Shown here piece after piece: positions 51,514 through 53,346 of a stretch of 64,000 nucleotides of DNA. Below the pieces are notes generated by a model. That model was not told the origin of the DNA. It did not search any database and worked only from the letters and a program-made list of their open reading frames with translations. The translations under genes were made by a program, and so were the position numbers. This DNA comes from Candidatus Moanibacter sp. (GTDB lineage: Bacteria > Verrucomicrobiota > Verrucomicrobiia > Opitutales > UBA2987). The stretch spans positions 64,001 to 128,000 of the forward strand of contig CBDCEW010000102.1 in the NCBI GenBank assembly GCA_965215885.1, given 5' to 3'. Each line of letters opens with the position of its first letter. The stretch's first letter is position 1.

Positions 51514-51547
51514 CAGCCTGTCGGACTCTTTTCATCAGGCTGCTAGG
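51510..51547. repeat. short MITE family A' copy
   Basis: ctagcagcctg...caggctgctag; shares its CTAG with the adjacent MITE-A. Confidence 0.65.
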
Positions 51548-51561
51548 AATCTTATAGTAGC

Positions 51562-51876
51562 TCCAGGTTATTCATCCAAGGGGCCGAGTGGAGCCGCAGG
51601 AAAAACTCGGCGAGGCCCCTTTGTGAATAACTTGGCCGATCAGTGGTTGGCGATGGGTCAAAGAGTTTGTTTGGCTAAGGGTGAAAATATTCAAAGGCAG
51701 CCGTCCACTACGAACTTAGGAATCAGTCCGAAGAGGACTTCCGACAGAATTTCGAGTGGACGGCCTGCCTGGATGACCGAAAACGAACACTCAGTTTACA
51801 TCCTCATAACAGGATCCAACTATAAGGACTTCGCCTGGACATCCAGTGCCTTTGAAAAAAGCAAAAAGACAAACTA
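51562..51876 (+). ncRNA. IS110 bridge RNA (5' stem-loop, target-binding loop, donor-binding loop)
   Basis: Target loop guides TAGGAATC (51717-51724) and TCCGACAG (51740-51747); donor loop guides CTCAGTTT (51790-51797) and ACTATAAG (51819-51826); each pair flanks an internal hairpin inside a closing stem. Confidence 0.88.
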
Positions 51877-51889
51877 AAGGAACAAAGGG

Positions 51890-53200
51890 ATGCAGAAAAG
51901 GGAAAAAACAAATCGATATAGTGTGGTGATAGGAATTGATTGGGCGGATCAGAAAAACGATCTGTGGATCATAGAGAGCGAAACGGGAAAAGGGACCCAT
52001 CGACAGGTGGCGCAGGATGCGGTCAGCTTGCACGAATTTGCCGTAGAGATGAGAGAAAAGTATGCCAGCGTGGGCAAGCGCATGGCCATGGTGGTGGACC
52101 AGAAGCGAGGAGGGTTGATCAACTTTCTGATGGGCTTGGAGTTTGTCGATATCTATCCAGTGCATGCGGCCAGGGCGAAGGATTATCGCCGGGCGCTGTA
52201 TCCATCAGGGGCCAAGAGCGACCCGGTCGATGCGCAAATACACGCGGAGTTTTTCCTCAAACATCCCGAGCTTTTTACCAAATGTTTCATACCTGACACG
52301 GCCCAAACACGGGAGCTGAACCTGTTGTGCGAGGACCGCCGTGGATTCGTCGATCAGGCTACCAGCCTCGAACAGCAGTTGGGCAGTTGTCTGAAGCAAT
52401 ATAACCCTTTGGTCTTGAAATTGTTCGATGATCTAGGCAGTGGCCTGTGCCTGCACTTTATATTGCGTTGGCCGACCCTCAAGAAGCTGCACAGAGCATC
52501 GGAGGGTGTCTTGCGAAAGTTCTTCTATAAGCACAACTGTCGCAGTGACGCCAAAATCCAGGAGCGTCTCGAATTGATCGGTAACGCACGAGCCTTGACC
52601 GAAGATGCAGCCATCATTGAAGCATCCAGCAGAAAAGCACAGACGTTGGCCGGACAGCTTTTGACCCTGTGCCCGCAGATCAAAGCGTATGAGAAGCGTA
52701 TCAGGGAGCTATTCAGAAGCCATCCCGATGCAGCCGTGTTCAGTGGCATTCCCGGAGCCGGCGAGGTCATGAGTCCCCGGTTGCTGTGCGCGTTCGGGAC
52801 CGATCGTTCGCACTTCGAAACGGCCCAGAACATGACCCAGTGGAATGGATCCGCTCCGGTCACGATCAACAGCGGGCAGGACAAAAGAACCGGACAACCG
52901 AAACGAATGGTCAACTGGCGGTGGGCGGCTCCTACCTTCGTGCGGCAAAGTTTCGTTGAATTTGCCGAACATTCGATCCGAAACTGTGCCTGGGCAAAGG
53001 CCTTTTACCAGATCAAAAAAGAACAGGGCAAACCCCGCCAAACCATTCTTCGTGCCCTCGCTCTCAAGTGGACCCGCATTCTGTTTCGCTGTTGGCAAAA
53101 TAGCGAACGCTACGATGAGCAAAAGTATCTCCAATCGCTCCAACGCACCGGTTCACCGGTGTGGAAAAGACTTCAGCAAGCAAATGCCAACGCCTTGTAA
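51890..53200 (+). CDS. IS110 family recombinase/transposase
   Basis: IGIDWAD, AKSDPVDA (RuvC-like domain), IPGAG, APVTINSG (catalytic Ser), ALALKW. Confidence 0.95.
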   Translation: MQKREKTNRYSVVIGIDWADQKNDLWIIESETGKGTHRQVAQDAVSLHEFAVEMREKYASVGKRMAMVVDQKRGGLINFLMGLEFVDIYPVHAARAKDYRRALYPSGAKSDPVDAQIHAEFFLKHPELFTKCFIPDTAQTRELNLLCEDRRGFVDQATSLEQQLGSCLKQYNPLVLKLFDDLGSGLCLHFILRWPTLKKLHRASEGVLRKFFYKHNCRSDAKIQERLELIGNARALTEDAAIIEASSRKAQTLAGQLLTLCPQIKAYEKRIRELFRSHPDAAVFSGIPGAGEVMSPRLLCAFGTDRSHFETAQNMTQWNGSAPVTINSGQDKRTGQPKRMVNWRWAAPTFVRQSFVEFAEHSIRNCAWAKAFYQIKKEQGKPRQTILRALALKWTRILFRCWQNSERYDEQKYLQSLQRTGSPVWKRLQQANANAL

Positions 53201-53252
53201 ACACAACATGAGAAAAAACTCAAAAAATCCCTTGACGGACTACCTCAGTTTT

Positions 53253-53346
53253 CTGTCGGTCTTATCCGCGTCGGAAAGTCGATCTGTCACCTTAAAAATC
53301 TACACCACGGAGATGTTAGGAAATCTAAGTCCGACAGATTCCTAAG
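53253..53346. repeat. MITE family A copy (remainder after the IS110 insertion)
   Basis: Reverse-complement colinear with 19147-19246; its left end is at 51543-51552. Confidence 0.85.

What the first reader, a model, noticed from the sequence alone, without database searches (positions are those of the whole stretch)
51543..53346. The IS110 is programmed against a host MITE, and empty target sites lie in the same window
Seen: excising the IS restores a complete ~100-bp MITE-A. The guide-encoded target TAGGAATCTGTCGGA is the MITE terminal repeat. Unoccupied perfect sites occur at 19148-19162 (+), 37258-37272 (-) and 53330-53346 (-, a 17/17 match to CTTAGGAATCTGTCGGA), with a near match at 25536-25550. 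Inference: an RNA-guided element using a non-autonomous element as a safe harbour, analogous to IS621 in REPs. Dispersed target sites could also allow rearrangements.
Basis: partly seen in the sequence, partly recalled or inferred. Interest (0 to 1): 0.7.

Follow-up and report, generated by a model that had tools for sequence, protein, structure and literature searches.

The report
Guide-RNA jumping gene targeting repeat ends
A small jumping gene of the IS110 type carries a guide RNA that spells the tip of a short repeated element scattered through its host genome, so it lands almost only in those tips; this is a clear new example of a habit already known for this family.

Summary
Window 51552-53253 is a 1702-bp IS110-group element: a DEDD/Tnp recombinase, a 338-nt left end and a 53-nt right end. 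The left end folds into two internal-loop arms, as bridge RNAs do. One loop matches the flanks on both strands (TAGGAATC / TCTGTCGG, overlapping the TC core). The other loop matches the element's own joined ends.

Removing the IS restores a roughly 100-bp palindromic repeat. Genome-wide, 9 of 10 full copies sit at AGGAATC|TGTCGG. That 13-mer occurs 256 more times unoccupied, against 0.2 expected, mostly as the inverted ends of about 160 MITE-like loci.

A sister IS in one related genome (80% nt identity) has one guide base changed (A to G). All 20 of its readable insertions lie in GGAG-type ends and none in the 591 GGAATC ends available there. Two further sister pairs among distant relatives show the same guide/flank covariation.

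The tenth copy lies in a site that resembles the IS's own end junction.

Two caveats. The repeat shows no target-site duplication and no parent transposase was found, so "MITE" is a working label. Rearrangement through dispersed sites was not shown.

Verdict: a new member of a known kind (IS621 in REPs; IS4321/IS5075 in transposon ends).

The parts
51542..51551 (+). Outer tip of the split repeat (…CTAGGAATC), which is the left half of the target. The core TC is at 51550-51551.
   Evidence: the restored site aligns to the repeat profile starting 10 nt left of the junction.
51552..53253 (+). IS110-group insertion sequence, 1702 bp, ending in the core TC (53252-53253).
   Evidence: 10 genomic copies, 99.9-100% identical, all align over bases 1-1702.
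51553..51558 (+). -10 box TATAGT of the promoter that forms only when the right and left ends are joined.
   Evidence: TTGACG, 17 nt, TATAGT across the joined ends.
51564..51634 (+). 5' stem-loop of the left-end RNA.
   Evidence: (I17). One compensatory and three one-sided pair-keeping changes versus the G006 element.
51690..51856 (+). Predicted bridge RNA core: an outer stem enclosing a target-binding arm (51700-51764) and a donor-binding arm (about 51769-51846).
   Evidence: MFE -66 kcal/mol, z = -7.4, 0 of 200 shuffles fold as well. (I23, I24); compensatory changes at two pairs.
51717..51724 (+). Left target guide TAGGAATC. It has the same sense as the left flank, so it pairs with the bottom strand.
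   Evidence: 8-nt exact run ending on the core.
51740..51748 (+). Right target guide TCCGACAGA, the complement of TCTGTCGGA (core plus right flank).
   Evidence: 8 nt match the occupied site; 9 nt match the consensus repeat end.
51790..51799 (+). Left donor guide CTCAGTTT(AC), which matches the last bases of the right end.
   Evidence: 8-nt run. The first core base is not matched (A versus T).
51819..51826 (+). Right donor guide ACTATAAG, the complement of the first bases of the left end (C)TTATAGT.
   Evidence: (I3).
51890..53200 (+). Recombinase gene, 436 aa.
   Evidence: PF01548 (E = 1.2e-17) and PF02371 (E = 2.3e-9). D17, D111 and D114 invariant, D70 where relatives have E, and the Ser in NSG just before invariant G329; weak match to the IS621 and ISCro4 chains.
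53232..53237 (+). -35 box TTGACG in the right end.
53254..53346 (+). Remainder of the split repeat. Its far end (53330-53346, minus strand) is an unoccupied perfect site.
19146..19246 (.). Intact repeat with empty sites at both ends (19148-19162 +, 19231-19245 -). It overlaps the 3' end of a TetR-type ORF.
25535..25633 (.). Intact repeat with a one-mismatch site at 25536-25550.
37247..37274 (-). Solitary repeat end with an exact empty site at 37258-37272.

Best explanation
This is an IS110-group insertion sequence that moves by RNA-guided recombination.

Proposed mechanism (inferred steps marked):
1. When the element is excised as a circle, its right and left ends join and create a sigma-70-type promoter.
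2. That promoter would transcribe the long left end into a bridge RNA (inferred).
3. One internal loop of that RNA pairs with both strands of the 13-15-nt sequence (T)AGGAATC|TGTCGG(A). The other loop pairs with the element's own joined ends.
4. The DEDD/Ser recombinase would then exchange strands at the shared TC core (inferred).

The target sequence is the conserved inverted end of a 96-97-bp palindromic, MITE-like repeat present about 160 times in this genome. The IS therefore has hundreds of mostly intergenic landing sites. It always enters with its left end facing out of the repeat, 8-10 nt from the repeat's tip.

Shown in silico: anatomy, complementarity, site use, and covariation in sister elements. 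Inferred: transcription of the RNA, circle formation and catalysis.
For: Family: Pfam PF01548 and PF02371. Catalytic positions are conserved. The left end is 338 nt and the right end 53 nt.

Fold: a 5' hairpin followed by two internal-loop arms, z = -7.4. Against the 80%-identical G006 element, 10% of paired positions differ versus 30% of unpaired positions. Of 101 predicted pairs, 4 show compensatory changes, 5 show one-sided pair-keeping changes and 7 are broken.

Guides: exact 8-nt runs link the left target guide to the left flank, the right target guide to the right flank, the left donor guide to the right end and the right donor guide to the left end. The two target guides overlap on the TC core. 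Cross-comparisons give only 4-5 nt. The junction promoter is TTGACG-17-TATAGT.

Site use: 9 of 10 full copies lie at AGGAATC|TGTCGG, in otherwise unrelated flanks. There are 256 exact empty 13-mers against 0.2 expected. Of the 10 restored sites, 6 are full repeats, 1 is a half repeat, 2 are solitary ends and 1 shows nothing.

Covariation: the G006 guide reads TTAGGAGGC where this one reads TTAGGAATC. Its 20 readable left flanks are GGAGTC (17), GGAGGC (2) and GGAGCC (1), with 0 GGAATC. That genome offers 326 AGGAGNC… and 591 AGGAATC… sites. By my arithmetic the probability under random choice is about 2e-9. In 4 hybrid repeats the IS sits in the GGAG end although the far end is GGAATC.

Two further sister pairs covary between guide and left flank: L025/L026 (TCTGGCG versus TGTGGCG) and L022/L032 (CTCGTGC versus CTCGTCC).

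Co-occurrence: the repeat-end motif is abundant only in the two genomes that hold the IS (276 and 635 copies). The 39 other relatives have 0-2 each.
Against: - No RNA ends, circle junction or empty-site read was observed. Only assembled contigs could be laid. They show presence in two RNA libraries from one study, not transcription.
- No Rfam family matched.
- One of 10 copies is not at the guide-encoded site.
- In G006 the guide base opposite the first core base (G) mismatches 17 of 20 targets. Insertions follow site availability at that position, so not every guide base discriminates.
- The left donor guide also mismatches the first core base.
- Sequence similarity to IS621 recombinase is weak: E = 1.7e-4, C-terminal domain only.
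- The covariation rests on three sister pairs, not on a large sample.
Confidence: 0.85

Rival explanations
1. The target repeat is not a transposase-mobilised MITE. It is a REP-like or other host palindromic repeat, spread by a different route or kept for a host function. The IS would then target it exactly as IS621 targets REPs. This rival concerns the label of the target, not how the IS works.
For: - No target-site duplication: in 86 repeats, 39 have no direct repeat at the ends, 35 have 1 nt, 10 have 2 nt and 2 have 4 nt. The flanking bases extend the palindrome instead.
- No longer element with the same ends was found.
- 13 minimal 35-bp end-to-end hairpins exist.
- The ends are about 99% conserved while the interior has only 63% median pairwise identity.
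Against: - Size, 13-17-nt inverted ends, about 160 loci, and one copy replacing the 3' end of a TetR-type ORF all look like a MITE.
- No Y1/RAYT-type transposase lies within 1.8 kb of a repeat end.
- The repeat is confined to two genomes of the family, as expected of a mobile element.
Confidence: 0.3
2. Site choice is made by the recombinase protein reading the DNA directly. On this view the complementarity of the left-end loops is coincidental or serves regulation only.
For: No experiment here shows that the RNA is needed. One guide position (opposite the first core base) does not discriminate.
Against: - Four separate 8-nt matches lie in the positions and strand senses of the IS621 model (model read in PMC11208160, sections 6-7).
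- Guide and flank change together in three sister pairs.
- In PMC11208160 (section 7) the RNA is reported to be required in vitro for IS621.
Confidence: 0.05
3. The shared flanks arose by duplication of the IS together with its neighbourhood, not by repeated independent insertion.
For: - The C25 and C59 copies share 529 bp of right flank at 99.6% identity.
- The C84 copy lies at the outer end of a roughly 15-kb inverted duplication whose other arm ends in a partial IS at the contig start.
Against: - For the other copies, flanks beyond the repeat are unrelated over 4 kb. Similarities are limited to the repeat itself (83-327 bp, 72-85% identity).
- The IS enters either end of the repeat.
- The 20 G006 left flanks are all different.
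Confidence: 0.03

Closest known systems
IS621 of Escherichia coli (IS110 group, bridge RNA; Durrant et al. 2024, PMC11208160; sections 5-13 read in part)
   Same: - Same two Pfam domains and a long left end with a short right end.
- A 5' hairpin plus two internal-loop arms.
[quoted passage not shown]
- The promoter is rebuilt across the joined ends.
- The natural target is a multi-copy palindromic repeat (REP). In that paper 144 of 173 experimental insertion sites were in REPs.
   Different: - The protein is 436 aa; the IS621 chain in the PDB is 328 aa, and sequence similarity is weak.
- The core is TC, not CT.
- The right target guide pairs over 8-9 nt, where IS621 has 4.
- The target is the tip of a 96-bp inverted-repeat element, not a REP hairpin.
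- The acidic residue at position 70 is D, where relatives have E.
[quoted passage not shown]
   Same: An IS110-family element that homes in on one fixed position, in one orientation, inside the terminal inverted repeat of another mobile element.
   Different: By the account in PMC11208160, those elements belong to the IS1111 group, with the guide RNA in the right end and subterminal inverted repeats. Their targets are large autonomous transposons, not a miniature repeat.
ISPpu10 and ISPpu9 of Pseudomonas putida (abstracts seen: bioRxiv 10.64898/2026.03.19.712850; PMC12288879)
   Same: IS110-family elements whose insertions all fall in copies of one conserved intergenic repeat. Multi-copy targets go with multiple IS copies.
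   Different: For ISPpu10 a target-encoded stem-loop is reported as a second specificity determinant. Whether the palindromic body of the repeat here plays such a role was not tested.

Membership tests
IS110 family, IS110 group (bridge-RNA elements) | N-terminal DEDD (RuvC-like) domain | tested here: met
   PF01548 covers 1-155 of 155 profile positions, E = 1.2e-17. D17, D111 and D114 are invariant in 8 aligned relatives. Position 70 is D here and in G006 and E in the six others.
IS110 family, IS110 group (bridge-RNA elements) | C-terminal Tnp domain with conserved serine | tested here: met
   PF02371, E = 2.3e-9. The Ser in the NSG motif before invariant G329 is present in 7 of 8 aligned sequences. 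It aligns to the ESG of the ISCro4 chain. That this Ser is the catalytic one is recalled, not tested.
IS110 family, IS110 group (bridge-RNA elements) | No terminal inverted repeats and no target duplication other than a short core present at both junctions | tested here: met
   TC ends the left flank and also ends the IS. No terminal inverted repeat of the IS appears among the repeats.
IS110 family, IS110 group (bridge-RNA elements) | Long left non-coding end and short right end | tested here: met
   338 nt versus 53 nt.
IS110 family, IS110 group (bridge-RNA elements) | Left-end RNA with a 5' stem-loop and two stem-loops carrying internal loops | tested here: met
   Prediction only: (z = -7.4). 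Conservation against G006. No Rfam model matched.
IS110 family, IS110 group (bridge-RNA elements) | First loop complementary to both strands of the target; second loop complementary to the joined ends | tested here: met
   Four exact 8-nt runs in the expected places and senses; cross-controls give 4-5 nt. Guide and flank covary in three sister pairs.
IS110 family, IS110 group (bridge-RNA elements) | Promoter reconstituted across the joined ends | tested here: met
   TTGACG, 17 nt, TATAGT spans the junction. This is a sequence match only.
IS110 family, IS110 group (bridge-RNA elements) | Circular intermediate and RNA-dependent recombination | not testable with these tools
   Contigs of 4 public runs showed no junction of right end to left end. 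Contigs cannot exclude one.
MITE (miniature inverted-repeat transposable element) | Small, non-coding, multi-copy, with terminal inverted repeats | tested here: met
   Modal length 96-97 bp. About 160 loci, 136 of them 90 bp or longer. Ends of 13-17 nt are conserved at about 99%.
MITE (miniature inverted-repeat transposable element) | Target-site duplication flanking each copy | tested here: not met
   No duplication longer than 2 nt in 84 of 86 copies. The flanking bases extend the palindrome.
MITE (miniature inverted-repeat transposable element) | An autonomous element with the same ends that supplies the transposase | tested here: not met
   None was found among end pairs 0.5-4 kb apart or by clustering the sequence inward of the ends. 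The abundant 1.93-kb DDE IS has different ends. The genome is 90% complete.
REP / RAYT system | A Y1 (RAYT) transposase gene flanked by the repeats | tested here: not met
   Twenty of the 29 PF01797 matches in the genome were checked (one row merges two adjacent C91 matches and one merges two adjacent C103 matches). The nearest repeat end to any of them is 1.8 kb or more away.

The most novel reading that the evidence does not exclude
Sister IS110 elements in two genomes have been retargeted between two subfamilies of the same repeat by a single guide-base change. GGAATC ends, on a 96-bp repeat, are used in this genome. GGAG-type ends, on a roughly 65-bp repeat, are used in G006. In G006 the choice is 20 to 0 among more than 900 candidate sites. 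This would be a natural, countable case of bridge-RNA reprogramming in which an RNA-guided element tracks, splits and probably disables another mobile repeat. The element's copy number would be set by target abundance: 10 and about 23 copies here, against single copies in relatives for which no spare target copy was found.
Probability: 0.6. Interest if true: 0.45.

Novelty: new member of a known kind. Interest (0 to 1): 0.35.

Why it matters
Its main value is as a natural specificity experiment for a bridge recombinase. Hundreds of near-identical sites differ at single bases, and the occupied and empty ones can be counted. From these counts, one guide position discriminates completely, while the position opposite the first core base does not discriminate at all. 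One off-target copy lies at a site that resembles the donor junction. That is the class of off-target site reported for IS621 in a 2026 preprint (10.64898/2026.08.31.748434, section 8 read).

It also adds a miniature-repeat end to the known list of IS110-family targets (REPs, transposon ends, attC sites). It does not change how the family is understood to work.

Tried and rejected
- **Rfam.** Scan of 51000-54000 at E up to 1: nothing.
- **Close relatives elsewhere.**
  - Genome contigs with the protein: none.
  - Metagenome contigs: one 42% relative.
  - Phylum sample of 401 genomes: 12 with a match, the best outside this genome at 44% identity.
  - Pattern scan of genome contigs with a conserved donor-arm 23-mer: a single chance hit inside a coding region of an unrelated MAG.
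- **Parent element of the repeat.** Not found. RAYT association not found.
- **C84 flanks as remnants of an older IS.** Rejected. Similarity is limited to about 14 nt at the left junction, and the left-end alignment scored below the shuffles.
- **Read evidence.**
  - Only assembled contigs were available.
  - No circle junction was seen. The one joint (51531 to 53316; one contig, depth 2.5, side 22) looks like another repeat locus, not excision.
  - Contigs from two RNA libraries of one study cover the left-end RNA region (51606-51839 and 51545-51845) and stop near its predicted 3' side. DNA carry-over cannot be excluded and contig depth cannot rank regions, so I draw no conclusion on expression.
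- **Spare target copies in distant relatives' genomes.** My two degenerate patterns found none in G368, G315 and G237. The patterns depend on uncertain core placement.
- **Earlier notes of this scan.** By place and by sequence: nothing.
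Full report
**1. What is at the coordinates**

The window holds an ORF at 51890-53200 (436 aa). It matches both Pfam domains of IS110-family recombinases: PF01548 at E = 1.2e-17 over the whole profile, and PF02371 at E = 2.3e-9.

A blastn of 51552-53253 against the 105-contig, 6.36-Mb genome of the window gave these hits:

| Hit | Detail |
|---|---|
| 10 full-length copies | all align over bases 1-1702, 99.9-100% identical |
| 1 partial copy | 490 bp at the start of contig C84 |
| 1 fragment | 211 bp on C99 |
| 1 weak hit | 73 bp |

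This fixes the element at 1702 bp. The left non-coding end is 338 nt and the right one 53 nt. TC ends both the left flank (51550-51551) and the element (53252-53253).

In an alignment with seven relatives, D17, D111 and D114 are invariant. Position 70 is D here and in G006 and E in the other six. The Ser of the NSG motif precedes invariant G329. Similarity to the solved IS621 and ISCro4 recombinases is weak and confined to the C-terminal domain (E = 1.7e-4 and 8.8e-5).

**2. The RNA**

The left end folds into a 5' hairpin (51564-51634). Behind it, 51690-51856 forms an outer stem enclosing two arms, each with an internal loop. The MFE is -66 kcal/mol, z = -7.4, and 0 of 200 shuffles fold as well. 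This is the architecture described for IS110 left-end RNAs in PMC11208160 (section 6).

A script compared the loop sides with the restored target and with the joined ends:

| Loop side | Sequence | Matches |
|---|---|---|
| Arm 1, 5' side | TAGGAATC | the left flank up to and including the core |
| Arm 1, 3' side | complement of TCTGTCGG | the core plus the right flank; the two guides overlap on TC |
| Arm 2, 5' side | CTCAGTTT | the end of the right end |
| Arm 2, 3' side | complement of CTTATAGT | the second core base plus the start of the left end |

Cross-comparisons (target loop against donor and the reverse) gave only 4-5 nt. The senses and the overlap on the core are those of the IS621 model (PMC11208160 section 7).

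Joining the ends creates TTGACG, 17 nt, TATAGT.

No Rfam family matched.

**3. The target**

The 13-mer AGGAATCTGTCGG occurs 256 times in the genome against 0.2 expected. The 15-mer with the outer T and A occurs 124 times.

Allowing one mismatch, there are 465 hits. They form 122 inward-facing pairs, mostly 96 bp (50) or 97 bp (16) apart. There are smaller classes at 88 bp (10) and 35 bp (13), and 223 hits are unpaired.

A profile built from 72 copies of 95-98 bp finds 160 loci, 136 of them 90 bp or longer. The ends are about 99% conserved. Whole copies have 73% median pairwise identity and the interiors 63%.

The window holds:
- intact copies at 19146-19246 and 25535-25633;
- a solitary end at 37247-37274;
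- the split copy at 51542-51551 plus 53254-53346.

I could not confirm the element as a true MITE:
- Of 86 copies, 84 have no flanking direct repeat longer than 2 nt.
- No longer element shares its ends.
- None of the 20 Y1-transposase matches checked, of 29 found, lies within 1.8 kb of an end.

**4. Site use in this genome**

Nine of 10 full copies have AGGAATC immediately to the left and TGTCGG immediately to the right. The base before the A is T in 6 and C in 3. The base after GG is A in 7 and T in 2.

The 10 restored sites matched the repeat profile as follows:

| Restored sites | Match to the repeat profile |
|---|---|
| 6 | full length, including the window's copy at E = 1e-24 |
| 1 | half length |
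| 2 | an end only |
| 1 (C84) | nothing |

In every match the repeat begins 8-10 nt left of the junction and runs rightwards. The IS therefore always has its left end facing out of the repeat. It uses either end of the repeat.

Flanks beyond the repeat are unrelated over 4 kb, with one exception: C25 and C59 share 529 bp of right flank at 99.6%.

The IS copies are nearly identical while the repeats are old and diverged. This suggests a recent burst into an older repeat population (inference).

The window's copy lies between two convergent genes, a metallophosphoesterase and an alpha/beta hydrolase. One end-only site is the spacer between tRNA-Arg and tRNA-His genes.

**5. The exception**

The C84 copy is flanked by …CACCTCAGTTTAC on the left and TTATGGGG… on the right. 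The left flank matches the left donor guide over 10 nt, and the right flank begins like the IS's own left end. Alignment shows no extended IS remnant.

A 2026 preprint reports that IS621 inserts off-target at sites matching the donor recognition sequence or one arm of it (10.64898/2026.08.31.748434, abstract and section 8 read). The C84 site fits that class. This is resemblance, not proof.

This copy lies at the outer end of a roughly 15-kb inverted duplication. The other arm of that duplication ends in the partial IS at the contig start.

**6. Relatives and covariation**

Among 40 related genomes, only G006 (same family, another genus by the tool's labels) has a close relative: 26 protein matches at about 79% identity. 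Its IS is 80% identical in DNA.

Its left target guide reads TTAGGAGGC where this one reads TTAGGAATC. The right target guide is unchanged.

I examined 23 G006 loci:

| Feature | Result |
|---|---|
| Left junction readable | 20 of 23 |
| Left flank | GGAGTC 17, GGAGGC 2, GGAGCC 1, GGAATC 0 |
| Right flank TGTCGGAC | 20 of 22 readable |
| Far end of a short repeat visible downstream | 17 of 22 |
| Far end of GGAATC type while the IS sits in the GGAG end | 4 of those 17 |

The G006 genome offers 326 AGGAGNCTGTCGG sites (237 with T) and 591 AGGAATCTGTCGG sites. Random choice would give 20 of 20 with a probability of about 2e-9 (my arithmetic).

Among the first 100 listed AGGAGNC sites, 77 have T, 14 G, 7 C and 2 A. 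The 17:2:1 split of insertions follows availability. The guide base opposite the first core base therefore does not discriminate.

In this genome AGGAGTC… sites are rare: 7, against 256 AGGAATC….

The 12-mer GGAATCTGTCGG is abundant only in these two genomes (276 and 635). The other 39 genomes have 0-2 each.

Distant relatives (31-42% protein identity) keep the TTATAG-like start of the left end and its complementary donor guide. In the nine elements compared, the longest exact run between the left junction and the stretch upstream of the donor arm was 6-9 nt. In most of them it directly follows a conserved ACGAAC-like motif. For 66 unrelated non-cognate pairs the mode was 4 nt, and 15 of 66 reached 6 or more. 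The separation is therefore moderate.

Two sister pairs covary:
- L025 TCTGGCG versus L026 TGTGGCG;
- L022 CTCGTGC versus L032 CTCGTCC.

In each case the guide and the left flank change together.

**7. Public reads**

Twenty listed runs from 9 studies hold the stretch or part of it. Four runs were laid; all are kept as contigs.

- In run X2 one contig spans exactly 51544-53259: the IS plus 8 and 6 shared flank bases. This is as expected if the copies in that sample share the same target halves.
- Contigs of two RNA libraries from one study cover the left-end RNA region.
- No circle junction or clean empty site was seen.
- None of this shows transcription or activity.

**8. Comparison and verdict**

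The element meets every sequence-level criterion of an IS110-group bridge-RNA element. It behaves like IS621 in REPs and like IS4321/IS5075 in transposon ends.

Two full-text searches (IS110 + MITE + insertion + target, 46 papers, 15 listed; 'IS110 family' + 'miniature inverted-repeat' + inserted, 3 papers) showed no listed title or abstract describing an IS110 element aimed at MITE ends. I read none of those papers for this point except the MITE passage of PMC12288879.

Earlier notes of this scan describe several similar cases in other genomes. I did not check them.

I rate this a new member of a known kind. The shared right flank of C25 and C59 and the C84 inverted duplication are hints only.

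Noticed in passing
window 19422-21350: A 1.93-kb insertion sequence with a 528-aa DDE_Tnp_1 transposase (PF01609, E = 5.6e-9), bounded by CTAG on both sides. At least 39 near-full-length copies elsewhere in the genome are in the 40 rows I printed, out of 242 blast rows. Three of them lie on contig C84.
   Followed up: partly
window about 19250-19423: A second miniature repeat with inverted ends like AGAAAATGAA(A/C)CTGAGATTT directly abuts the 96-bp repeat. The same pairing recurs at many loci, giving about 340 bp of shared sequence at 70-88% identity. Its end also follows the repeat in several G006 insertion flanks.
   Followed up: partly
window 21347-21415 and 51508-51548: A third small palindromic repeat with ends CTAGCAGCCTGTCGGA shares CTAG…TGTCGGA with the target repeat. 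A piece of it lies immediately left of the IS insertion in the window.
   Followed up: no
genome contig C84, 1-15348 and 43679-56354 (outside the window): A roughly 15-kb inverted duplication whose outer ends are IS110 copies at the donor-like, non-canonical site. One arm is cut by the contig start.
   Followed up: partly
genome contigs C25:10936-12637 and C59:14596-16297 (outside the window): Two IS copies share 529 bp of right flank at 99.6% identity but have unrelated left flanks. The C59 contig ends there. Possible causes are IS-associated duplication, recombination between copies, or two strain variants in the assembly.
   Followed up: partly
L017 1445-3146 (genome C104:324317-326018): One IS copy sits in the short spacer between a tRNA-Arg(acg) gene and a tRNA-His(gtg) gene, on the same strand as both. 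Its target there is a solitary repeat-end-like sequence. Not every landing site is an obviously harmless one.
   Followed up: partly
window 18592-19257: A TetR-family regulator ORF (PF00440, PF16925) runs into the repeat at 19146-19246, so its last 35 or so residues are encoded by the repeat.
   Followed up: no
whole genome: 29 matches to the Y1 transposase family. They include 9 near-identical 152-aa IS200-type copies and a dozen diverse 330-440-aa ORFs that match only part of the domain.
   Followed up: no
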